Counted from the first letter of the whole stretch, positions 18,928-58,364 are shown. The stretch is 62,223 bases of DNA, filler included, from Deltaproteobacteria bacterium (GCA_016283195.1; 4 parts of 4 records of this genome joined end to end with filler, not necessarily neighbours in it); one strand, 5' to 3'. The notes: generated by a model not told the origin, from the letters alone. Numbers and translations: made by a program.

Positions 18928-19027
18928 NNNNNNNNNNNNNNNNNNNNNNNNNNNNNNNNNNNNNNNNNNNNTTAATTAATTAANNNNNNNNNNNNNNNNN
19001 NNNNNNNNNNNNNNNNNNNNNNNNNNN
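18928..19027. other. Artificial contig linker (44 N + TTAATTAATTAA + 44 N)
   Basis: Palindromic 12-mer with stops in all six frames; identical at three places. Confidence 0.97.
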
Positions 19028-47320: not shown

Positions 47321-47420
47321 NNNNNNNNNNNNNNNNNNNNNNNNNNNNNNNNNNNNNNNNNNNNTTAATTAATTAANNNNNNNNNNNNNNNNNNNNNNNN
47401 NNNNNNNNNNNNNNNNNNNN
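47321..47420. other. Artificial contig linker
   Basis: 44 N + TTAATTAATTAA + 44 N. Confidence 0.97.
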
Positions 47421-49847
47421 GGTGAGATCCCAGCCGCAGTCTTCATAAGACTTTTCAATGGCCTCTTTTAAGACGGCGGGCATGGCGGCATACATGGGCC
47501 AGGCGGCGTTGAAAATCTCAATAAGGCGGTCCAGGTGTTCCAAAATGTGAATATTATTCGCCGCTTCGCTCCCTCCGTGCGGGAAGCTGAAGGGATTTAA
47601 GCGCAAAAGCGGGGCGATCTCCTTATTGGTGCCAAAGACGGCGGCCTTTTGCGCGAAGAGGTGCTTATATTCGCCCTTGGCCGGCTCGATGACTAAAAAT
47701 TTAGCCCCCAGTTCGCTGGCGCTTTGTAAAATTTTATAGACTGTGTTGGATTTGCCGCTGCCGGTCGAGCCGGTAATGAAGGTGTGTGAAACCAAAGAAT
47801 TTGCATTGATATTGCAATCGGCATTTTCGGCATGAAGCATGTGGAAAATTTTACCTAGTTTTAGATGCTTACTAGCGATGCCGGGCTTAAAAGTAGCGAT
47901 GTTTCGACCAAATTTGGCGCATTCAATAACCGGCAAACCAGATATTGATTTCAAAGGAAAGTTTAGGGCATACGAAAGTTCTTTTCCGGACAAGGCTGTT
48001 GTTGGGGTAACAATTGTCGGATAAAGATTTAAAGTTTCATCCTCCGATAACATATTTTCATCTATCCCCAAAATAGGGTGTAGAAGATTTTTGAGATATA
48101 GGCATATTTCTTTTGCCGATGCTGATTCAGTGTCATTTTTATCTCCGCGCCAAATATTTATAGCTGCTTGGCTCATATGAGAGTCTTTGCCTTGAGTAAG
48201 CGCCCAATAAGAATGAGCCACACTCTGAGTTATATCGTGTTTTTGACTAATAACATAAGCGCCAAATTCCCAAGCACCCAGTGCCGAGCATGTATCAAAG
48301 CGCTTTATTTGAGCCTCAAGTTTTTCCAGAGCGTATTTAATATTATAGTTGGTGAAAGACTGTGTTGAACCTTCATTTTTGCCAACGGCAATAGATACAT
48401 TTGAGGAGCGGGCAAAATTTAAGCCAAAATTTGTACCGAGATTAAAATTTTTAGCAGTAGATATTGTATTTGAGATACCGCTTGTTAAGGCTTTGCCAAG
48501 CTGCCTGGCTAGAGTTTTTCCTATTGTTTTTGATGTGCTTTCACCTACAGTTTCAGACTGGCTGCGATTCCAAGAATGGTGATAATCTGTACCAGCTGTG
48601 CCGGTGATTGTGGTAGAAGCTCCTACAGTAGTGCTAGCACTAGCACTAGAGGTGGCACTAGCATTAACGCCACCAATTCCAGGTATACCAGCACTTCCAC
48701 CAGCAGTAACACTCTCACTTACACCAACAGTTGAACTCATATTAACACTCTGGCTTGTACTGCCGCTAACAAAACCACCGACAGTATCACTGCTCCCTTT
48801 GGTCTTAGTAGAGGAAGTTTGTCTGCCGGTGGTACTAGATTCCGATGTTGAAACAGAAGTACTTTCAGAACCAGATATAGAACTAGAAGTGCCAGCAGCA
48901 TTACTAATGCCATGTTGGATACCAGCACTTACACCAGCACTGGTTCCGGCAACAAACATTGAATTGATAGTTGACAAATCGGAAGTGGTAAAACTTGTTT
49001 GCCAGGAAGCATATGGAAAAAGACCGGAATATATTTCGGCCAAGTGTAGTTTTCTCTTCTCTATATCGAGTATTGGCGTGGCTAAAAGAATGATAGTATA
49101 GTCTTCAGAACCATTTGCTGATGGGATTGTTCCATCCAGAATTTTTTCGATAGTTTGACTTATAAATCTATCGGATTTTTCGCCTGGAATGTTACTGATA
49201 CTGGCAACAGAGGCATTGCGCTGTTCTAAGTCGCTTAAACAAGGTATTAATCCGAAAGATGTACATTTATCGGAGCTATTTATGGATGACTGTAAAGTTG
49301 AAAATTCTGAACCGGGGAAATTACCTCCAATGGCACGCCTTAATCTGTCCATATAGGAATAGACCAGTTTTCGTCCACTGGTGTTGGTGTCTTTTAGACT
49401 AACCACAGCGAGATATACTTGCGTCGTTTTATAAGTTCTATGAAATATGAGAGCAATATTGCATTCTTCATTAGCTAAGACACCATAAACATTGATTAGC
49501 TTCTCCAGGTTGTCTTCCGATGAATTAATAACCCACTTCGAAATATTTACATAGGAGATACTATAGAGTGGATCTACATGATTATCATATTTTATGGGAG
49601 AATAAAGTTCAGAAATATGTGGTAAATAGGAGTTAAAAATCTCTATACCAGCAGTTGCCAATAAGCGAGTAGTAAGCACATCATCAGTTAAATCTGGTTG
49701 CTCTGACAAATAAGAATCTCTTTTCTGTTCAATTTCTAATATCTGTTCAGGACTGAGTGAAGAACACTTTGCTATTTTATCAGCTACCTTGGACGCACCT
49801 TTTTTTATGGCATTTGCAGCGCGAATTTTTATAATAGAACCAATCAT
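47421..49847 (-). CDS. HerA/FtsK-superfamily (DUF87) ATPase with a long N-terminal extension and Ser/Thr/Gly-rich segment, 3' truncated
   Basis: HTFITGSTGSGKSN Walker A, FLVIEPAKGEY, LRLNPF, WPMYAAMP; runs into the gap. Confidence 0.85.
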
Positions 49848-49848
49848 A

Positions 49849-52467
49849 TTAATCCTCCAGATCCTCTTTGTCTTTCATTTCAATTAATGATTCAACATTT
49901 ACTTTATATTCACCAACTTTCTTGATTATCTTTAAGAAGTTTGCTTTCTCTGCTTCCAATTCGCTAAGGCTTTTGGATAATGTTATCAATGTTGGATTTA
50001 ATTTATCAACACTAGCTCTGGCTGTTGTTATAAGTTGCTCTGTCCATTCTTTAAATGATTCAAAATGGTCACTAATAGTTTTCTTAGAAATGTCTTTTAG
50101 CTCATGTCCAATCTTGACATTAAGATCAGTGCACAGTGAATCACTATCGATATTACGAGAAAACCATCTTCTGTATTTAAAATCTCCAACAAAGTCAAGA
50201 TCAGGTTTTTCAAGACTAATGGATTTAAATTCAAGTATGGCAGACTTTAATTGGGACTTTTGGATGTCAGATACAAGATTAGATTCTGTAATAAACTCTA
50301 AAATATTGGTTCGCAACTTCTCTGAATTATTCGTCCAATATTCACATGATTTATCGTGAATTTTGCTATTACTTTCACTTAAAATTGCATAATATTTCGC
50401 TTTGACATACTTTATGTTTTCTTTATATATTTTCTTGTCAACATCCTGCTTTTCGCTCCTGAATTTTAATTCGGCAGAAATCGGCACGGCTATATTAGTA
50501 AGAATATTTTTTGCACTCTCGCCAATCTCAGAAAAAGGCCTAACTGCTTCGGTTATATTAGCTTCTCGCTTTACCATAGCAACTAAGTTGCCTCCAAGTT
50601 TTGCAACATTTTCACCAAGTTTTGCAACATTTTCTGTTAGTTTCTTCTTCGCAGCTTCGCTTAAATCCTTGGCCTCTTTTTCCGATGAAGAAATTGACGA
50701 TTCAATATATTGTTGGCTAGAAATGCTGGCAAAATCGTTTTTAAGATCAGACTCATTAAATTTGCTATTTGGAAGCAACTCATCTGATATTTTGTCGGCT
50801 AAATTCTGTTTTTCATCGCTTAATTGAGTGATAGCTTCTTCTAGCTTTTCCTTGATTGATTCCAAGAGCTTCTTTTCGTTATCCTTTATGATTCTATTTA
50901 TAATAGTGATGGAACGCTCCTTTTCTTCTGATAACTCTTTGATTCTCCTGTTGATATCTTCAAAAACTTTATTTAGAAAATTGTATGCTTGCGTAGATTT
51001 GTTATATGCCGAATAAATATTGGCAAAATTAACTATTTCTTTTTCAATGCTATATAATCCGCTATTTAGATAAACTGGATCCGGATGCTCTGATTCTTTA
51101 TCACTGTCAAATCTTGCTTTAATTTGCGGAGCGAGAATATTATATTCATAAAATCTTTTGGTAAATTCTGACTCATCGGTATTTTCGAGAGAGTTATCAA
51201 ATTGATCCTTGTCTTTGCGATAGTTCCTTGAATCCTCTTTATTAATAAATTGACCATTGTTTTTAAAGCCAAGACCAAATAAAGCAGTTAGAAAATATAT
51301 CCCTTGTAGTCCTTTCTCTTTTAGTTTTTTTACTGCATTTGTTTGTTTTATTTTTTCGACATCATATTCTTTCACGTCAAATGTATTATCTGCCTTGTTG
51401 ACAATGACAATAGTAAAGCGCTGGTCAAGATTCTCGATTGATTGCAATTCAGTAATTAGAGTATCACTAGCATCTATCGATAACCCTTTCCAATCGGTGA
51501 TAAATATCGGTAGACCATTCGTTAGATTATGCATTTGGTTTTTTAGTAGTTCAAAATCCTTTTTATTGTCGATATTATCTGAACCAGGAGTGTCAAATAT
51601 AATGAGTTGGTTAACCGAATCTTTTAATACGCTGGAGTTGAAGGGAACTTCAATTGAGATAATATCTCCGATGCTATTGCAATCTGCGCCATCATATGAA
51701 TTCAAAAAAGTGAGGTATCTATTTATTCGTGCAGCCAAGCTTAAATCTTTTTCTGACGAGAAATTATTGAGGAGATCGCGAAAATCAGGAGGTATTTTAC
51801 CTTCTATTTGAGGTTTTTCCATTAAATTTATGCAAGCTAGCTCTCCCTTGTATTTAAATGATATTTTAGCACGATCAATATACTTAGATTTTTCAACTTT
51901 ATATAGCTTTGCGGTGCATCTACCAGCTGCTTTTGGCAAATACTCCCCACCAAGTAGGGCATTTATAAATGTAGATTTCCCGCTACTCACAGTGCCGATT
52001 ACACATATTGGGACTGAATCGTTAGCTGCATCAGAGTATTTTTCAATGCTTTTTCCCATTGATTCATCATATAAATCTGTTTTTTCAATTAGTATTTTTA
52101 ACTCTTTGAAAATTTTGTGTATATCTTCTATAACATCTCTTCCGTTATTGAGATAACGATCGCCTTCATTTATTTTTATTTTTTCAAAGTTTGTAGATAT
52201 TGACTGAGCCTCTTTTAGCTCTTTGAGTTCATCACTTGTTCCCTCGAATATGATTTCAAGATTTCCATTATTATCTGCATAGGATATTCGAAGTTCCTCC
52301 AGAATATTGGAAGCATTAAATGGTAGAAAGCATTTTTTAAAATGTAAATTTCCTAGGTCGCTGCTGTTATCATTTCCTATTAATTCATCTCCGCTTTTCT
52401 CATCTGAAATGTAGTAGCTGATGTCCATGTTGTATGGATTATCTACGATTTTGATTTTTTTTGACAT
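49849..52467 (-). CDS. Bacterial dynamin-like GTPase
   Basis: G1 GTVSSGKSTFINALLG, G2 RCTA, G3 DTPG, G4 NKAD; long helical / coiled-coil C-terminus; AAGGAG RBS. Confidence 0.85.
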   Translation of the reverse strand: MSKKIKIVDNPYNMDISYYISDEKSGDELIGNDNSSDLGNLHFKKCFLPFNASNILEELRISYADNNGNLEIIFEGTSDELKELKEAQSISTNFEKIKINEGDRYLNNGRDVIEDIHKIFKELKILIEKTDLYDESMGKSIEKYSDAANDSVPICVIGTVSSGKSTFINALLGGEYLPKAAGRCTAKLYKVEKSKYIDRAKISFKYKGELACINLMEKPQIEGKIPPDFRDLLNNFSSEKDLSLAARINRYLTFLNSYDGADCNSIGDIISIEVPFNSSVLKDSVNQLIIFDTPGSDNIDNKKDFELLKNQMHNLTNGLPIFITDWKGLSIDASDTLITELQSIENLDQRFTIVIVNKADNTFDVKEYDVEKIKQTNAVKKLKEKGLQGIYFLTALFGLGFKNNGQFINKEDSRNYRKDKDQFDNSLENTDESEFTKRFYEYNILAPQIKARFDSDKESEHPDPVYLNSGLYSIEKEIVNFANIYSAYNKSTQAYNFLNKVFEDINRRIKELSEEKERSITIINRIIKDNEKKLLESIKEKLEEAITQLSDEKQNLADKISDELLPNSKFNESDLKNDFASISSQQYIESSISSSEKEAKDLSEAAKKKLTENVAKLGENVAKLGGNLVAMVKREANITEAVRPFSEIGESAKNILTNIAVPISAELKFRSEKQDVDKKIYKENIKYVKAKYYAILSESNSKIHDKSCEYWTNNSEKLRTNILEFITESNLVSDIQKSQLKSAILEFKSISLEKPDLDFVGDFKYRRWFSRNIDSDSLCTDLNVKIGHELKDISKKTISDHFESFKEWTEQLITTARASVDKLNPTLITLSKSLSELEAEKANFLKIIKKVGEYKVNVESLIEMKDKEDLED

Positions 52468-52660
52468 ATTATGTGCTCCTTTATGAGTATGTGTTATAGA
52501 GTTTAAGGCCTTTATCCTAGTCTATTACGGGTATATAAAGCCGGTTTGTTAATATTGGGTGATTTGGTAGTAAAAATGGATTTGATGGTACCAATATTTT
52601 AGAATACAATGTGGTGAAAAAAAACTGCTTAATTTTCTCGAAAAAAGTTGAAAAAAAGAC

Positions 52661-52689
52661 TTGACAACCGATTATAGATCGAATATTCT
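52661..52689 (+). promoter_or_regulatory. Candidate sigma70 promoter, antisense to the leader
   Basis: TTGACA (52661-52666), 17-nt spacer, TATTCT (52684-52689). Confidence 0.5.
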
Positions 52690-52791
52690 TGATTGCTTGA
52701 TTGCTTGATTGCTTGATTGCTTGATTGCTTGATTGCTTGATTGCTTGATTGCTTGATTGCTTGATTGCTTGATTGCGCTAAGTATTGCCAT
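52672..52791 (-). CDS. 39-aa repeat-containing leader peptide (uORF) upstream of the dynamin operon
   Basis: GGAGGG 7 nt before ATG 52791; MAILSAI(KQSSNQAI)x3KQSRIFDL*, TAA at 52674-52672. Confidence 0.6.
   Translation of the reverse strand: MAILSAIKQSSNQAIKQSSNQAIKQSSNQAIKQSRIFDL
52688..52775. repeat. Simple sequence repeat (CTTGATTG)x11, read as CAATCAAG on the minus strand
   Basis: Eleven perfect 8-nt copies counted directly. Confidence 0.97.
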
Positions 52792-52824
52792 CAAGAGTCC
52801 CTCCGCCAAAACGCGAATGAAGCC

Positions 52825-52853
52825 AAGCTAGCATAGCGCATCTGGCGGCGCAA
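52825..52853 (-). promoter_or_regulatory. Candidate sigma70 promoter for the leader / dynamin / HerA transcript
   Basis: Minus strand: TTGCGC (52853-52848), 17-nt spacer ending in TGC, then TAGCTT (52830-52825), an extended -10. Confidence 0.4.
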
Positions 52854-52971
52854 GAGGAAAATGCAATCTACCGATTTCTAAAATATCTTTGCAATTTTAA
52901 ACCCGGCTTTAAATTTGTAGGAATATGAAATTAAGTCCCTGCAACATTTGACTGCTAGTTTCCCAAAAATC

Positions 52972-53553
52972 TTAATTTTTGGGGCAAGTTGGCGCTGCTT
53001 CCTCAATTATCACCTGCAAAGTAAAGGGCTTAGAGGCTTTCCTGGCCAGGCCGAGCCCGAGATAACGGACTTCGATTTGTGCCGGACCAAGAGCTAAGGT
53101 GTTAAATTCACAGCGATAGTGGCCGAGGCCGCGCTGATTTTCCGGCAAAGTGAAATGTTTTTCATATTCCAGAGCTAGCGGGCCAAAAGTGGCCGGATTA
53201 TCCCAGCGCTGGCTGCCGTCGCCCTCTTCGGCCAGGGAGATAACCAATTTTTGCCCCATGGCTATTCGCACAGTGGCGCCGTTATCTTCATAGCCGATGG
53301 CCGTTTGCCCAAGATGCCATTCGGCGGCCATTTTTTGCTCCAAACTGGCTATGTTTTTCTCCAAAAGGCGGTAGCCTCCAAGGGTGAGGCGCGGGTGCTG
53401 CAAAAGATTATTTAGAAGATTCAAAGTATTAGATGGGATAATATCTATTTGCGGCAAAAGCTCAATAATATCATTTATTTCTAAAAATGTGATATAACCT
53501 TCTTCTTCTTGCAAAAGGGGCAATATGTAGGCCGCTAAATCATCAATATTCAT
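52972..53553 (-). CDS. Hypothetical protein with a C-terminal chagasin/I42-like beta-sandwich
   Basis: DNGATVRIAMGQKLVISL...W...EFNTLALGPAQIEVRY...PFTLQVII pattern; start at 53553 follows the upstream stop. Confidence 0.55.
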   Translation of the reverse strand: MNIDDLAAYILPLLQEEEGYITFLEINDIIELLPQIDIIPSNTLNLLNNLLQHPRLTLGGYRLLEKNIASLEQKMAAEWHLGQTAIGYEDNGATVRIAMGQKLVISLAEEGDGSQRWDNPATFGPLALEYEKHFTLPENQRGLGHYRCEFNTLALGPAQIEVRYLGLGLARKASKPFTLQVIIEEAAPTCPKN

Positions 53554-53554
53554 C

Positions 53555-55438
53555 TTATTGCTCCCGCCAGAATTTGGCCGCAATGTGGCCGATTTTTTGG
53601 CCCCCGGCATTGGTGAGAGCCAGTGAAATGAGCGGCATGGTCTCTTTATCGTTAAGCGAAGCGGCTATGGTTAATTCTTCGCCCGCTTTTACCCTCTGGC
53701 CGGGAGTGAGCATAATAGTGATGTGGACCGGCTCGTTTTGCGCCCAGGGCGCGGCGGCTTTTTTCTCCCGCAGGCGGCGGAGAAGTTTGAGGAAAACTTC
53801 GCTCTTTAGGGCGCCGTTAGCGCTAATATCATCATTTTTTAGAATTATTTCCGTGAGGGCATCTGGCTCTTTGGTCTCTATGGTCTCTTTAGGCGGATTT
53901 AGCGGCACCGGTGAAAACTTTGGCACGGAGCAGGGGTGCGGAGTAAGGCCTTCGCGCTGGAGAATCTCTCGGGCAGCTACCCGGCCGTTGATGATAGATC
54001 CCATATAGCCGCCGCCGCCGCCGCGCCCCCAGGCTCCGGCAAAATAGAGCCCTTTTAAGAGGCCGTTATTGCCCAGGCGGAAGATGTCGGCCTGTTCCGG
54101 TATTTGCGCCCAGCCGTAAACTGCGCCCAATGGATTACCGGTGACCAGCGAGAGAGTGCGCGGGGTGGCCAGCTCGCTAAGAGTTATATGGCCTTTTATC
54201 TCCGGCAGATGGCGATAAAGTTTTTCCAGCATTATGGCGGCTGTTTTGGCCTTTTTCTCTTCATATTCGGCGCGGGAAATATTTACCCAGGGGGCTCCGG
54301 GGGCGAGTTCCAGCATTTGTAAAACGCCGTTTTCCGTGGTGGGAGCGGAACTATCTTCGGCAGAGTAACTACTTATAACGAAATCGCTTTTTTCGTATTG
54401 CTCATTAAGCGCCAGCTCATAAGCAAAGTTGTTATCGTCATAGTGATTAAAGAAATTACTGTGCGAAACTATCCCCAGATCTTGGGCTGGCTTGTCCAGG
54501 CCGATATACATGGTGATGAGTGAGGCCGAGGGTTCCAGTTTTTCCAGCCGGTTTAGGTAGGGCAGGGCAATATTGGCCTCTTTTAAGAGTTTTTTATAGG
54601 TATTTAACGGGCCGGCGTTCGATACCACAATAGGGGCGGAAAACTGCTCGCCGTTACTCAGCTCAACACCGGTAACTTGGCGATTTTCTACCAAAATTTT
54701 GCTGACTTTGGCGCAGGTTTTTACCGGTGAGCCCAGGTCATCTAGCGCCCCCTCCATGGTGGTGGTAAGAGCGCCGCCGCCGCCCACAATATAATAATTG
54801 CCGGAGAGTAAGTGCGAACCCATGACTTCCACAGCCCAGTTGGCGGCACAGCGGCTGTTGGGCAGGCCGGTTGATTGCCAGAGCTGGCCCAAAATAGTTT
54901 CCAGCCGGGGATTTGGGAAACACTCGGCCAAAAGTTCCGCATAAGTGCGGCGAAAATACCTGGCCGGAAAGTAACGCTCCACATCAACCGGGTTGCCCCA
55001 AAAGAGGTCATAATTTGCGTCAACTATTTCTTTGCAAATATTTAGAAATTTATTGATGCCCGCTTGCTCTTTTGGAAACAGATCGCCCAAATATTTGCCA
55101 ACTTCGGCGCTCCCGCCCGGGAGGTCATAGGCGGCATCGGGAAAAACCGAGCGAAACATTGGGTTGCGCTGGCGGATAGTCAGGCGGTCGTATATTTGTA
55201 AGTCTTTTAAAATACTGGCGAAATTACCATCTTTATCTAATGCCGGGGCAATGTGCAAAGAGGCATCAAAATTATACCGGCCGCGGCGGAAATTTTGGGC
55301 ATAGCCGCCAACTTTGGGCTGCTTTTCCAGAGTGAGTACTTTGAGCCCGGCCCGCGCGAGATGCAGAGCTGCGCTAAGCCCACCCAGGCCGGAGCCGATG
55401 ACAATGGCGTCAAATTGGGCATCTCCCATAAAAGACAT
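53555..55438 (-). CDS. Phytoene-desaturase / retinol-saturase-family FAD oxidoreductase with an extra C-terminal domain
   Basis: VIGSGLGGL, VGGYA, FDASLH, ATPRT, GAVYG, GLYFAG; about 120-aa extension, possibly hot-dog-like. Confidence 0.85.
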   Translation of the reverse strand: MSFMGDAQFDAIVIGSGLGGLSAALHLARAGLKVLTLEKQPKVGGYAQNFRRGRYNFDASLHIAPALDKDGNFASILKDLQIYDRLTIRQRNPMFRSVFPDAAYDLPGGSAEVGKYLGDLFPKEQAGINKFLNICKEIVDANYDLFWGNPVDVERYFPARYFRRTYAELLAECFPNPRLETILGQLWQSTGLPNSRCAANWAVEVMGSHLLSGNYYIVGGGGALTTTMEGALDDLGSPVKTCAKVSKILVENRQVTGVELSNGEQFSAPIVVSNAGPLNTYKKLLKEANIALPYLNRLEKLEPSASLITMYIGLDKPAQDLGIVSHSNFFNHYDDNNFAYELALNEQYEKSDFVISSYSAEDSSAPTTENGVLQMLELAPGAPWVNISRAEYEEKKAKTAAIMLEKLYRHLPEIKGHITLSELATPRTLSLVTGNPLGAVYGWAQIPEQADIFRLGNNGLLKGLYFAGAWGRGGGGGYMGSIINGRVAAREILQREGLTPHPCSVPKFSPVPLNPPKETIETKEPDALTEIILKNDDISANGALKSEVFLKLLRRLREKKAAAPWAQNEPVHITIMLTPGQRVKAGEELTIAASLNDKETMPLISLALTNAGGQKIGHIAAKFWREQ

Positions 55439-55595
55439 ATAAAAACCTCTAAGACGGGATGAAAAGACTCATACCGTTTTGCCATGATTCTCTACCACAC
55501 AAATTTCCAGTAATAAATCAAAAAGCGGCGGATTATTCCATAAACTCTGCCTGTCTAGCGGGAGGGGCAGTTTCAAGAAAATGGTTCTTTTAAAA

Positions 55596-55838
55596 ATCCA
55601 CAGCCTTCTGGCCAATTTGGCAGGTTCAGGGCTTACAATCCGGGCCAAAGAAGCCGGCAGCGCAATCGGTATTAGCATCATCGCTACCGGCATCGCTTTT
55701 AGCATCTTGAGTTTTGTCGGTTTGGGCATCCGTATTTTTGGCTGGCTCTTCTTTATGGCTGTCTCTTGGTTTAGTTCCGCACCCACTTAGGCAGAGCGCC
55801 ACAGCGAGTAGTAATAATAAATGATTGAACCTCTTCAT
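55596..55838 (-). pseudogene. Truncated EGF-module lipoprotein remnant
   Basis: Lipobox LSGC; CAAGFFGPDCKP-TGA-TC-QIGQKAVDF*, with TGA where the EGF-type Cys of CKPCTC is expected. Confidence 0.55.
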
Positions 55839-55904
55839 GCACTTTTCATGTAAAAAAGCTTTGTAAATTAATAAGATGCCCAGCTAAAATACACTATATT
55901 TCTT

Positions 55905-57254
55905 CTAAGCCGGGATAAATTGGTCGCGCCCCACATGGCACACCGGGCAGACAGCCGGCGGCAGCGGCCCCTCATAGCTATAGCCGCATTGGCGGCAAAC
56001 CCAGCGCCGGCCATCCCATTCCATGGTGTGACCGTCATCATCTGTGGGCGGAATTATTGCAGATAAAATAGCGGCCACCGAGCCACCGCTTGAGCCTTCA
56101 GGCCTTTTGAATTTATTCTCTATTGCGGCAGTTATTTGCGGATAGCCACTAATATTGCCTAATAAAATTGCGGCAATAAGCTCATTGTCCGCATTAAAGA
56201 AAAGCGCGCGATAGCCATCTGCAAAAGACTCTTCCAGCATAGATGTGGCTTCTGCCCGGTCACCCACGCTATAAAGGGCAATTTCGCGGCTCTTTAGATG
56301 CAGCTCGGCCGCTTTGGCTGCATAATTATCTTTAATGGCCAAAGCATTTGTGCCGGCCACTTCGCCCTGGCGGCGGGCCGGATTCCAGAGCAGCTCCAAA
56401 GTGCCGTTAAATTCCACACAGTTGCCGCAGGCAAAAATAGCGGGCTCGCTGGTCTCCATGGCCTCATTTACTATTATGCCGTTTTTAACTGCCAGCCCGG
56501 CCTCTTTGGCCAAAGCGATATTGGGGCGCACTCCGGCCTGGGCAAGAATCAGGGCGGCTGTTATTTCCTGCCCGTTTTGTAAGGAGATGATGTGGGCATT
56601 ATTTTTAGAAGTTATAGCGGCAATTTGCGCCTTACAGTTAACTGTAATACCTCTATTTTCCAAAATATTTTGCAAAAGCGCCGCCGCCTTATCGTTTAGC
56701 TGCCGCGGCATGAGGTGGGCGCCAACTTCCAAAATGGTGACTTTATGACCCATTTTAGCCAGTATGAGCGCACTTTCTATAGCCAAAACGCCGCCGCCGA
56801 TGATAGTGATTTCCGCCGCTTTTTGCTCCTTTAGATTATGCGCCAGTTTTTCGGCATCGGCCATAGTCCAGAGCAGCTGGGCGGCCTCTTTAAGGCCGGG
56901 AACAGGCGGCACAAAGGGGCTGGCACCGGTGGCTAAGATAAGACTATCATAAGGAAATTCCTGGCTTTTTGTTATGACAACATGGCGCTCTTTATCAATA
57001 GCCGTAGCGGCTATCCCGCTTAAATACAAAATGCGCCGCGCCGGCAAAAAATCGGGCGCATAAGAGGCCAGATATTCTTTAGGCAGAGCGCCGCTCACCA
57101 GGCTGCCTAGGGCAATGCGGCAATAAAAAGGCTCATCTTCGGCTGCCAAAATAGTAATTTGCGCTGCCGGGTAGGCCACTCTGGCCGCCAGTGCTGCGCT
57201 GATTCCGGCAATGCCGCCGCCGATTATGACTAGTTTTTTCTCCTCAGCCATCAT
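55905..57254 (-). CDS. NAD(P)H:FAD oxidoreductase (NirB / rubredoxin-reductase-like) fused to a C-terminal rubredoxin-like domain
   Basis: IIGGGIAG, YDSLILATG, IGGGVLAIE, GVRPN, IFACGNC; WVCRQCGY...CPVC. Confidence 0.88.
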   Translation of the reverse strand: MMAEEKKLVIIGGGIAGISAALAARVAYPAAQITILAAEDEPFYCRIALGSLVSGALPKEYLASYAPDFLPARRILYLSGIAATAIDKERHVVITKSQEFPYDSLILATGASPFVPPVPGLKEAAQLLWTMADAEKLAHNLKEQKAAEITIIGGGVLAIESALILAKMGHKVTILEVGAHLMPRQLNDKAAALLQNILENRGITVNCKAQIAAITSKNNAHIISLQNGQEITAALILAQAGVRPNIALAKEAGLAVKNGIIVNEAMETSEPAIFACGNCVEFNGTLELLWNPARRQGEVAGTNALAIKDNYAAKAAELHLKSREIALYSVGDRAEATSMLEESFADGYRALFFNADNELIAAILLGNISGYPQITAAIENKFKRPEGSSGGSVAAILSAIIPPTDDDGHTMEWDGRRWVCRQCGYSYEGPLPPAVCPVCHVGRDQFIPA

Positions 57255-57476
57255 GGGGCGCACTTTAGCAAAATATGGTTAAAAGGTAAAGCCATAATGG
57301 TGCAATTATCTTCAAATGTCACATAGCCGGAGCTGTTAGCGGTTAACTAAAAGAGCTGCGCCGGATCCAGGGAGAGAAACTCCTCTACAGAAAGGCTATG
57401 TTGGGCAAGAAAATAAAATCTTGTCACTCGCCTTGTTTCATAATAAATGAAGCGCCTTGTGAGGAGGCTTTATAAA

Positions 57477-58264
57477 ATGACCGCTCCGGCAAATGCTGTT
57501 TGTTCTCCGCTTTTTGTGAAATCTACCTGTGAATTGGCTAAGTTAGATGATTCTGCCGGCATTTCTATGTTGGAACATTTGGCCGAGCCGCTCTTGCTCG
57601 CGGCTGATGAAAAGGGGCTAAAAGTCGCTCCTTATAATCAGGAAGTGCTTACTTTGCAGGCTGATAGCGGAGCGGCGGCGCTTCTGGCCTTTTTACCGCC
57701 ATCTTTGCCCAGCGCTTTGGGCAGCGCCTCTTTTTGCCGGGAATACGGCCTTAGTTATGCCTATGTGGGCGGCGGTATGGCCAACGGTATTGCCTCGGTA
57801 AAGATGGTGGCCGTTTTGGCCCAGGCTGGTATGCTGGGCTTTTTAGGCACCGGCGGTCTTTCATTGGAAAATATTGAAAAAGCCATTTTAGAGCTGAAAA
57901 ATGAGTGTTCTGGCCGGCCTTTCGGCTGCAATTTATTGCATAATCCGTACTCGCCGCAAGTGGAAGAAGCCACGGTAGATCTCTATTTAAAACACGGGGT
58001 TACCATGGTGGAGGCCGCCGCCTACCTGGACCTCACCAAAGCTCTGGTGCGCTATCGTTTGCACGGACTTAAAAGAGACAGCGCAGGGCAGGTGGTGGCT
58101 CCCAACAAGGTGATGGCCAAAATCTCGCGTATTGAGCTGGCGCGCAAATTCCTGGCTCCGCCGCCGCTAAAATTGGTTAACTCTCTTTTGGCTGAAGGCA
58201 AAATCAGCCAAAGCGAGGCCGATCTTTCGCAAGAGATTCCCATGGCCGGGCAAATTACTGTGGA
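57477..58264 (+). CDS. pfaD: PfaD-family enoyl reductase (PUFA / polyketide synthase), 3' truncated
   Basis: LGSASFCREYGL, YVGGGMANGIAS, NLLHNP, VEAAAY, VMAKISR, FLAPPP; GAGGAGG before ATG 57477. Confidence 0.88.
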
Positions 58265-58364
58265 NNNNNNNNNNNNNNNNNNNNNNNNNNNNNNNNNNNN
58301 NNNNNNNNTTAATTAATTAANNNNNNNNNNNNNNNNNNNNNNNNNNNNNNNNNNNNNNNNNNNN
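58265..58364. other. Artificial contig linker
   Basis: 44 N + TTAATTAATTAA + 44 N. Confidence 0.97.

What the first reader, a model, noticed from the sequence alone, without database searches (positions are those of the whole stretch)
52517..52853. Octamer-repeat leader peptide forming a probable phase-variation switch for the dynamin-HerA operon
Seen on the minus strand: a candidate promoter, RBS GGAGGG, ATG 52791, then 11 copies of an 8-nt unit (not a multiple of 3). With the present count the leader stops at 52672, about 205 nt before the dynamin start. One extra unit moves the stop to about 52629. One unit fewer, or two more, opens a frame that runs to TAG at 52519-52517, about 50 nt before the dynamin ATG. 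The stretch between is C-rich and G-poor on the transcript (14 C vs 3 G over 52620-52561), like a Rho utilisation site. Known: repeat slippage drives phase variation, and untranslated C>G RNA triggers Rho termination. Inference: only one repeat-length class in three lets ribosomes mask the tract, so the operon is ON in a subpopulation and OFF in the assembled allele. This would be bet-hedged expression of a costly defence system without frameshifting its genes.
Basis: partly seen in the sequence, partly recalled or inferred. Interest (0 to 1): 0.88.

Follow-up and report, generated by a model that had tools for sequence, protein, structure and literature searches.

The report
Octamer repeat in dynamin-operon leader ORF
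A perfect 11-copy, 8-base repeat sits inside a tiny ribosome-site-led reading frame upstream of a dynamin-like GTPase/HerA-like ATPase gene pair in an uncultured bacterium; it may be a random on/off switch, but nothing here shows that it switches or how.

Summary
There are 11.1 perfect copies of AATCAAGC on the minus strand (52776-52688). They lie in an ORF led by GGAGGG, with ATG at 52791. The tract 52620-52543 (20 C, 3 G) has the most extreme C/G ratio in the 62-kb window, and the leader RNA is unstructured.

The switch itself is untested. No read or contig bridged the repeat, so length variation is unknown. None of 79 homologous loci has a repeat upstream. The long open frame is only marginally unusual (P 0.05-0.09). 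No promoter can be placed, and a perfect TATAAT lies just after the repeat. Taxon and rho are unknown.

The window is a chain of contigs. The real contig is 47421-58264, it cuts the HerA-like gene, and dnaN and the RlmL-like methyltransferase are not linked to it.

In homologues the gene pair is followed by a nuclease toxin and an immunity gene, so "defence system" is unproven.

The closest known case is the Streptococcus gallolyticus pil1 leader-peptide repeat switch, but no intrinsic terminator is present here. A Rho-dependent version would be a new variant. This scan has noted similar repeat-in-leader-ORF layouts on other DNA.

The parts
52865..52894 (-). Weak promoter-like site TTGCAA-18 nt-TAGATT upstream of the leader ORF (8 of 12 matches)
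   Evidence: Read by eye. It falls below the threshold of the scan, which found no minus-strand site upstream of the leader ORF. Inference only.
52799..52804 (-). Shine-Dalgarno-like GGAGGG, 7 nt before the leader ATG
   Evidence: SD-like motifs also precede the dynamin-like gene, the HerA-like gene and several other genes of the window. The chance of an SD+ATG in the 40 nt before the repeat is about 0.02.
52672..52791 (-). Leader ORF: 39 codons plus TAA in the assembled allele (MAILS, then AIKQSSNQ repeats, then RIFDL)
52688..52776 (-). Perfect octanucleotide repeat, 11.1 copies (unit AATCAAGC / GCAATCAA on the minus strand). It is open in all three frames on this strand; on the plus strand every frame meets TGA once per 24 nt.
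   Evidence: TRF; frames read directly from the unit.
52629..52631 (-). TAA that ends the leader ORF in the +1-unit (or -2-unit) class
52671..52676 (-). Perfect -10 hexamer TATAAT directly after the repeat, overlapping the present stop codon. There is no acceptable -35, since that position lies in the repeat.
   Evidence: and reading. Not reported by the scan, which needs 4 of 6 matches in both hexamers.
52543..52620 (-). C-rich, G-poor tract (20 C, 3 G, 12 YC dimers in 78 nt), with rut-like composition
   Evidence: highest C/G ratio of any 78-nt window on either strand of the 62-kb window. The leader RNA is not structured (z +0.53).
52517..52519 (-). TAG that ends the leader ORF in the -1-unit (or +2-unit) class. 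It lies inside a weak hairpin (about 52542-52506, -7.8 kcal/mol).
52476..52481 (-). Shine-Dalgarno AAGGAG of the dynamin-like gene, 8 nt before its ATG
49849..52467 (-). Dynamin-like GTPase gene, 872 aa, 33% G+C against 51% for the upstream genes
   Evidence: Pfam Dynamin_N, E 4.5e-16. G+C. The nearest homologue is 38% identical.
47421..49847 (-). HerA/FtsK-like P-loop ATPase gene. Its ATG is 1 nt after the dynamin stop (TAATATG). It is cut by the contig end at about residue 735 of roughly 1125.
   Evidence: Pfam DUF87, E 1.5e-11. Contig spacer. Alignment to the full-length L121 protein.

Best explanation
The octamer tract is a slippage-prone simple-sequence repeat lying in a translated, SD-led leader ORF. 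That ORF sits in the 5' leader of a horizontally acquired dynamin-like GTPase / HerA-like ATPase operon.

The unit is 8 nt, so each gain or loss of a unit moves the leader's stop codon among three positions: 52672, 52629 or 52517. I think the most likely function is a stochastic expression switch of the leader-peptide type. Only the long class keeps ribosomes on the unstructured, C-rich, G-poor leader (52620-52543) and lets transcripts reach the operon. The two short classes leave that RNA naked.

Translation-dependent protection from RNA decay would give the same outcome.

Shown: the repeat, the ORF, the three stop classes, the composition and the lack of RNA structure.

Inferred: that the repeat length varies, that the ORF is translated, that the promoter lies upstream of it, that Rho exists and acts here, and that expression differs between classes.
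For: - A perfect 11.1-copy repeat, the only one of that kind in 62 kb.
- In 80 related loci I saw only one other tract of 10 or more copies, a pentamer in L198.
- SD+ATG immediately before the repeat, with about 0.02 expected by chance. SD-led starts are used by neighbouring genes.
- Three frame classes with stops at 52672, 52629 and 52517.
- Both short classes end 52 and 9 nt before the tract with the most extreme C/G ratio in the window, and the long class spans it.
- The leader is unstructured (z +0.53).
- No intrinsic terminator on the minus strand.
- Precedents in print: repeats in a leader peptide gating an attenuator in S. gallolyticus pil1 (PMC3894217, abstract and section 13 read); uORF-controlled Rho termination at tnaC, speFL and cruR, and stochastic Rho control by invertible DNA (PMC12360218, passages read).
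- The same octamer forms long arrays at the 5' ends of genes in unrelated bacteria, for example L098 and L042 (SD-ATG, then repeat, then gene) and L096 (24.5 copies, 34 nt before a gene).
Against: - No evidence that the tract varies. The only other copy found (L120) is the same contig. No public contig bridged the repeat.
- None of the 79 other homologous loci has a repeat upstream of the dynamin gene. Of these, 66 have at least 500 nt upstream, and they form 45 clusters. None shares sequence with this leader.
- The 56-codon open frame after the repeat is only marginal (P 0.086 and 0.046). It is partly explained by G-poverty.
- No promoter was found upstream of the leader ORF at the scan's threshold. 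A perfect TATAAT lies downstream of the repeat.
- C content of the tract is only 26%.
- The organism and its rho gene are unknown.
- The copy number rests on one short-read metagenome contig.
Confidence: 0.4

Rival explanations
1. The repeat is a mutable but functionless microsatellite, or the decayed 5' end of a former phase-variable small gene. It sits at the edge of a low-G+C acquired island, and the operon is driven by its own promoter in the AT-rich 220 nt downstream of the repeat.
For: - G+C falls from 51% (52972-58264) to 30-33% across this region.
- A perfect TATAAT lies at 52676-52671.
- There is no repeat and no similar leader in 79 homologous loci.
- The long frame is only marginally significant.
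- The same octamer arises in many phyla in varied contexts, including inside coding-like sequence in rumen Bacteroidales MAGs.
Against: - Eleven perfect copies imply recent expansion.
- SD+ATG directly before the tract is unlikely by chance (about 0.02).
- The stop-codon geometry fits the C>G tract.
- The TATAAT has no acceptable -35 (my reading; not reported).
Confidence: 0.3
2. The repeat acts by its length and not by reading frame. As a transcribed 5'-UTR or promoter-distal spacer, it tunes expression gradually, as with hmw1A/hmw2A (ATCTTTC)n of Haemophilus influenzae.
For: The tract lies 221-309 nt upstream of the gene, outside any -35/-10 spacer. In the hmw case, expression is inversely proportional to repeat number in the 5'-UTR (PMC12721329, abstract read).
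Against: - The hmw mechanism needs a long hairpin between the repeats and a complementary G-rich arm. Here the repeat-containing RNA folds no better than shuffles (z -0.37; z +0.53).
- A length-only model does not explain the SD+ATG in front of the tract.
Confidence: 0.15
3. The phase-variable product is the small protein itself: an ORF of 88 to 96 residues (10 or 12 units; 104 with 15) that is only complete in one repeat class. It has no direct effect on the operon.
For: The layout SD-ATG, a few codons, then the repeat is the same as in L098 and L042, where the repeat lies in the 5' end of a real gene. One class gives an ORF that runs 56 codons past the repeat.
Against: The post-repeat peptide has no relatives in the 79 homologous loci. 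It is low-complexity and Phe-rich, with no signal peptide. Its open frame is only marginally unusual. No wider protein search was made for it.
Confidence: 0.1
4. The copy number, or the tract itself, is an assembly artefact of a short-read metagenome.
For: An 89-nt perfect repeat is longer than most assembly k-mers. Public contigs of other runs all break at the tract. The only other copy found (L120) is the same contig.
Against: The unique flanks on both sides are joined in a 10.8-kb contig. Related flanks ending at the repeat occur in other runs, for example X2 record 16, covering 52781-52863 with 5 differences. Such arrays are common in complete genomes.
Confidence: 0.05

Closest known systems
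Streptococcus gallolyticus pil1 (and pil3) leader-peptide phase variation with attenuation (Danne et al. 2014, PMC3894217)
   Same: A tandem repeat whose unit is not a multiple of 3 lies in an SD-led leader ORF upstream of an operon. The in-frame class gives a short peptide that stops well before the control point. Out-of-frame classes give longer peptides whose stop lies at or beyond it, so ribosomes decide whether transcripts continue.
   Different: pil1 uses a clear stem-loop terminator. Here no intrinsic terminator is found, and the only hairpin at the long-frame stop is weak and has no U-tract. The control point would have to be a Rho-type or decay-type signal. A textbook pil1-type layout, with hairpin plus U-tract, is seen in L198 for comparison.
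uORF-dependent Rho attenuation (tnaC-tnaAB, speFL-speF, cruR; review PMC12360218)
   Same: A short translated uORF is followed by an unstructured, C-rich, G-poor tract. The position of the ribosome masks or exposes that tract.
   Different: Those switches respond to a ligand that stalls the ribosome. Here the input would be a heritable change in repeat number. The review lists stochastic Rho control only for invertible DNA (fim, flgB), not for repeats (passages read). My two searches found no paper on a repeat-bearing leader ORF acting through Rho.
hmw1A/hmw2A heptanucleotide repeats of Haemophilus influenzae (PMC12721329)
   Same: A long array of a 7-8 nt unit is transcribed in the 5' leader, well upstream of the start codon.
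   Different: hmw works through a long 5'-UTR hairpin cut by RNase III, and by repeat length rather than frame. No such hairpin is predicted here.
Classical contingency loci (repeats in the 5' coding region or promoter spacer; Neisseria, Haemophilus, Campylobacter)
   Same: A perfect simple-sequence repeat at the 5' end of an accessory, horizontally acquired gene set.
   Different: The tract is neither in the regulated gene nor between -35 and -10. Octamer units are rarely reported: 2 papers contain both 'octanucleotide repeat' and 'phase variation' (listing only).

Membership tests
Simple-sequence-repeat contingency locus (slipped-strand phase variation) | Long perfect tandem repeat of a short unit | tested here: met
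   11.1 copies, 100% matches.
Simple-sequence-repeat contingency locus (slipped-strand phase variation) | Repeat number differs between cells or strains | tested here: inconclusive
   Of the 407 pieces laid from 4 runs, I saw the 32 listed. None of those has unique flanks on both sides of the repeat. The tool states that no listed piece spans the whole stretch and that 375 pieces are not shown. L120 is the same contig.
Simple-sequence-repeat contingency locus (slipped-strand phase variation) | Unit change alters expression of a gene | not testable with these tools
   No RNA holder is listed. Needs reporters or RNA-seq.
Leader-peptide repeat attenuator (S. gallolyticus pil1 type) | Repeat (unit not divisible by 3) inside an SD-led leader ORF upstream of the operon | tested here: met
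Leader-peptide repeat attenuator (S. gallolyticus pil1 type) | Intrinsic terminator (G+C-rich hairpin plus U-tract) between leader stop and operon, overlapped by the long-frame stop | tested here: not met
   There is no terminator-like site on the minus strand in 52300-53200. The hairpin at the TAG is -7.8 kcal/mol, z -0.76, with 45 of 200 shuffles folding as well, and it has no U-tract.
uORF-dependent Rho attenuation | C-rich, G-poor, unstructured tract after the uORF stop | tested here: met
   20 C and 3 G in 78 nt, with 12 YC dimers, top 0.01% of the window. Fold z +0.53. This is composition only; C is just 26%.
uORF-dependent Rho attenuation | Organism encodes Rho and termination at the site is Rho-dependent | not testable with these tools
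   No genome is held. The taxon is unresolved.
hmw-type 5'-UTR repeat element | Long hairpin pairing the repeats with a complementary arm | tested here: not met
   z -0.37 for 52870-52600. The repeat stays essentially unpaired.
Known anti-phage defence systems (PADLOC families, e.g. Sir2-HerA, DUF4297-HerA; dynamin-type Eleos is a recalled name) | Proteins match the system's models | tested here: not met
   The dynamin-like protein has 0 PADLOC families at E up to 0.01. The HerA-like protein has hits only over a stretch of about 80 residues around the P-loop.

The most novel reading that the evidence does not exclude
A heritable, repeat-driven switch in which the number of octamer units in a leader ORF decides whether ribosomes cover a rut-like tract. 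Rho, rather than an intrinsic terminator, would then silence a horizontally acquired dynamin-like GTPase / HerA-like ATPase module in two of every three repeat classes. By analogy with homologous modules, that module probably also carries a nuclease toxin and an immunity gene. This would be the first case of simple-sequence-repeat phase variation acting through Rho-dependent attenuation.
Probability: 0.18. Interest if true: 0.65.

Novelty: new variant of a known kind. Interest (0 to 1): 0.4.

Why it matters
If it is real, it would join two known principles that my searches did not find described together: repeat slippage in a leader peptide, and uORF-controlled Rho termination. It would show how a bacterium can keep a costly acquired module silent in most cells without mutating the module's genes.

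It would also give a handle on the biology of an unstudied, widespread four-gene module (dynamin-like GTPase, HerA/FtsK-like ATPase, polymorphic nuclease, immunity protein).

As it stands, this is one locus in one metagenome contig, with no evidence of variation. It adds one more candidate to a class that this scan has flagged repeatedly on other DNA.

Tried and rejected
- Sequencing runs: no RNA holder is listed. Three DNA runs held only small shares of the stretch (0.11, 0.05, 0.05).
- Read laying: the first request failed on the N spacers. The shorter stretch gave mostly contigs of other organisms carrying similar octamer arrays. It also gave three short pieces of related flanks: X1 52844-53057, X2 52781-53863 side ending at 52863 (52781-52863), and X3 52853-52956. 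None bridged the repeat, so there is no information on copy number.
- Rfam at E up to 1: nothing in 52300-53100.
- tRNA genes: none on the contig.
- Other repeats on the contig: nothing relevant.
- pil1-type terminator: not found.
- hmw-type hairpin: not found.
- A 5' hairpin that pairs the leader SD is no better than shuffles (z -0.89).
- Leader versus upstream regions of homologues: no similarity.
- Taxon: GlnA, which lies on another contig of the window, is at best 87% and 80% identical to unnamed proteins, then 66% to a 'Deltaproteobacteria bacterium'. The contig's own NADH oxidase is at best 77% and 74% identical to unnamed proteins. The Atlas result for DnaN, also on another contig, leans to Spirochaetota. 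Unresolved.
- Viral contigs: 4 of 25 candidate stretches encode a relative, and only 3 of them extend over more than about 500 residues. The module is therefore not typically viral.
- Literature: no paper on a dynamin plus HerA system or on a repeat-leader-Rho switch. Supplementary files could not be seen.

Full report
**What is in the sequence**

On the minus strand, a perfect tandem array of an 8-nt unit (AATCAAGC, or GCAATCAA in TRF's register) occupies 52776-52688. TRF reports 11.1 copies, 100% matches and a score of 178. It is the only array of that kind in the 62,223-nt window.

Fifteen bases upstream lies ATG 52791-52789. It is preceded at a 7-nt distance by GGAGGG (52804-52799). From that ATG the assembled allele encodes 39 codons (MAILS, then AIKQSSNQ repeats, then RIFDL) and stops at TAA 52674-52672.

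I simulated other repeat numbers. My script's coordinates were offset by one unit, and the true positions were rechecked:
- Plus one unit moves the stop to TAA 52631-52629.
- Minus one or plus two units moves it to TAG 52519-52517, 50 nt before the ATG of the next gene (52467).

The unit is open in all three frames on this strand. On the opposite strand every frame meets TGA once per 24 nt, as can be read from the unit itself.

**More than chance?**

The array itself certainly is. Three further points can be quantified.
- An SD 5-mer followed by ATG occurs 62 times in 124,446 nt of the window (both strands), and 35 of the 62 start ORFs of at least 100 aa. About 0.02 is therefore expected in the 40 nt ahead of the repeat. 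SD-like motifs precede the dynamin-like gene (AAGGAG), the HerA-like gene (GGAGGA) and several other genes, so the organism appears to use them.
The 78-nt window 52620-52543 has 20 C, 3 G and 12 YC dimers. That is the highest C/G ratio of any 78-nt window on either strand of the whole window (99.99th percentile). The 261-nt stretch from the last repeat units into the start of the dynamin gene (52700-52440) folds no better than shuffles (z +0.53).
- The 56-codon open frame after the repeat is only marginal. It is reached by 8.6% of dinucleotide shuffles and 4.6% of mononucleotide shuffles. It is not independent of G-poverty, because two of the three stop codons contain G.

**Corrections to the context**

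The window is not one molecule. It consists of contigs joined by N44-TTAATTAATTAA-N44 spacers at 18928-19027, 47321-47420 and 58265-58364. The finding lies on the contig 47421-58264. A metagenome record of 10,844 nt (L120) is 100% identical to that contig, repeat count included. It is therefore the same data and not an independent copy.

Three consequences follow:
- dnaN, the RlmL-like methyltransferase and the 205-aa ORF are on another contig and are not linked to the operon.
- The HerA-like gene is cut by the contig end. It aligns to residues 7-735 of a 1125-aa homologue.
- Taxonomic hints from other contigs of the window may not apply to this one.

G+C is 51% for the upstream genes (52972-58264), 30% for the leader after the repeat and 33% for the dynamin-like gene. 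This points to an acquired island whose edge lies near the repeat.

**The genes behind the leader**

The first gene has a Pfam Dynamin_N domain (E 4.5e-16). The second has a DUF87/HerA P-loop (E 1.5e-11). The second gene's ATG follows the first gene's stop by one base (TAATATG).

The nearest homologue of the dynamin-like protein is only 38% identical.

The pair is a conserved module. In 72 of 73 metagenome loci with more than 600 nt of downstream sequence (L120 included), a HerA-like homologue directly follows on the same strand.

PADLOC gives no hit for the dynamin-like protein and only P-loop hits for the ATPase. Two literature searches (listings, plus passages of PMC3482391) found no description of such a system.

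In the homologues, two further genes follow. I scanned 150 flanking ORFs (150 of 155; the five dropped were ORFs of about 122-136 aa, removed to fit the limit) from 45 locus clusters. The counts were 11 Colicin-DNase, 11 WHH, 9 Endonuclea_NS_2, 9 YezG-like immunity, 5 SUKH_6, 4 SMI1_KNR4 and 5 DUF6985.

A direct check of genes 3 and 4 in five loci gave a nuclease plus an immunity protein in four (L145, L126, L178, L192) and nothing in one (L143). L121, the closest homologue, also gave nothing convincing.

A few loci have Thoeris, WYL or PDC-S01 genes as neighbours. 'Costly defence system' is therefore a guess. The module looks like a dynamin/ATPase machine coupled to a polymorphic nuclease toxin and its immunity protein. 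Whether the window's copy has those genes cannot be seen.

**Tests of the switch hypothesis**

Laying four runs gave many contigs of other organisms with similar octamer arrays, plus three short pieces of related flanks. No listed piece bridged the repeat, so this is uninformative.

*Conservation.* Of the 79 other homologous loci, none has a short-unit repeat upstream of the dynamin gene. Of these, 66 have at least 500 nt upstream, and they form 45 clusters. None shares sequence with this leader. The layout is therefore private to this locus.

*Promoter.* The sigma-70 scan finds no minus-strand site upstream of the leader ORF. By eye there is TTGCAA-18 nt-TAGATT (52894-52865, 8 of 12 matches). 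Against the model, a perfect TATAAT lies at 52676-52671, just after the repeat, though its -35 position falls in the repeat and matches poorly (and my reading). Promoter rules of the unknown host may differ.

*Terminator.* There is no intrinsic terminator on the minus strand. The long-frame TAG lies in a hairpin, but it is weak (-7.8 kcal/mol, z -0.76, 45 of 200 shuffles as good) and has no U-tract.

*hmw-type hairpin.* None is predicted (z -0.37).

*Rfam and tRNA.* Nothing was found.

**Comparison with what is known**

The closest described mechanism is the pil1 switch of Streptococcus gallolyticus. There, GCAGA repeats in a leader peptide set where translation stops relative to a stem-loop terminator, and long out-of-frame peptides prevent termination (PMC3894217, abstract and section 13 read). 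The present locus has the leader-ORF half of that design but fails the terminator test.

By chance, one fetched locus shows what the full design looks like. L198, a locus with a homologous module, carries SD, ATG and a (CAGAT/GCAGA) array of about 12-14 units. These are followed by a strong hairpin with a U-tract and then a signal-peptide protein.

Rho-dependent attenuation controlled by uORF translation is established for tnaC, speFL and cruR. Stochastic Rho control is known for invertible DNA at fim and flgB (PMC12360218, passages read). Neither that review's passages nor my searches show a repeat-bearing leader ORF acting through Rho.

The same octamer forms arrays in many phyla. Long arrays often lie at the 5' ends of genes: L098 and L042 have it in the 5' coding region after SD-ATG, L096 has it 34 nt before a start, and H. 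pylori has it about 180-200 nt before a gene. This fits contingency-locus behaviour in general, but it does not single out the leader-ORF design.

Earlier notes of this scan list several repeat-in-leader-ORF candidates on other DNA. One involves an octamer in termite-gut Verrucomicrobia. Another is in the same 'genome', a (TTGC)17 tract before a Type IIG restriction gene. I did not test those notes.

**Verdict**

I put 0.40 on a functional leader-ORF switch. About half of that goes to the Rho version and the rest to translation-dependent RNA protection.

The rivals are:
- 0.30 on a functionless or relict microsatellite, with a downstream promoter driving the operon.
- 0.15 on a length-dependent 5'-UTR or spacer effect.
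- 0.10 on a phase-variable small protein.
- 0.05 on an assembly artefact.

The interest is moderate: a plausible new variant of a known mechanism, at one locus, with no evidence yet that it switches.

Noticed in passing
L121-L199 (e.g. L126:1211-8450, L178:5498-12966, L192:5995-13365): The dynamin-like GTPase and the roughly 1125-aa HerA/FtsK-like ATPase are the first two genes of a conserved four-gene module. Genes 3 and 4 are a 180-235-aa protein with interchangeable nuclease toxin domains (Colicin-DNase/WHH or Endonuclea_NS_2) and a 123-135-aa immunity-type protein (SUKH, YezG-like, DUF6985). Two literature searches found no description.
   Followed up: partly
window 18928-19027, 47321-47420, 58265-58364: The window is a concatenation of contigs joined by N44-TTAATTAATTAA-N44 spacers. 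Gene linkage across these points is not real.
   Followed up: yes
L198:8180-8470: This is a textbook pil1-type leader-peptide repeat attenuator. SD-ATG and a (CAGAT/GCAGA) array of about 12-14 units are followed by a strong hairpin with a U-tract and then a signal-peptide surface protein. It lies just downstream of a homologous dynamin/HerA/toxin/immunity module.
   Followed up: partly
L002, L004, L016, L019, L021, L023, L024, L026-L029, L036, L039-L041, L046, L047, L057, L076, L079, L085, L091, L093, L103, L110, L113 and others: Rumen Bacteroidales MAGs from several studies carry the same octamer as tracts of about 4 units (30-34 nt) at many loci per genome, often with G+C-rich, coding-like flanks. 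In two species (L029, L110) the tract is at the same position of what looks like the same gene. Unexplained.
   Followed up: no
L003, L014, L049, L054, L061, L077, L087, L097, L099, L105, L111, L116 (Helicobacter pylori): H. pylori genomes carry composite 8-nt arrays (TCATTCTA / TCATTCAA / AATCAAGC, with up to 10 copies of the last). They are followed by a conserved segment about 180-200 nt upstream of an ORF. The gene was not identified.
   Followed up: no
window 52661-52689 (+ strand): The best sigma-70-like site in the region (TTGACA-17 nt-TATTCT, 10 of 12 matches) points the other way. It would start transcription inside the repeat, antisense to the leader ORF.
   Followed up: no
window 52853: A 151-nt contig from run X3 matches 52853-52956 without mismatch over only 105 of its letters. 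Relatives may therefore differ from this contig downstream of about 52853, which could be the edge of the island.
   Followed up: no
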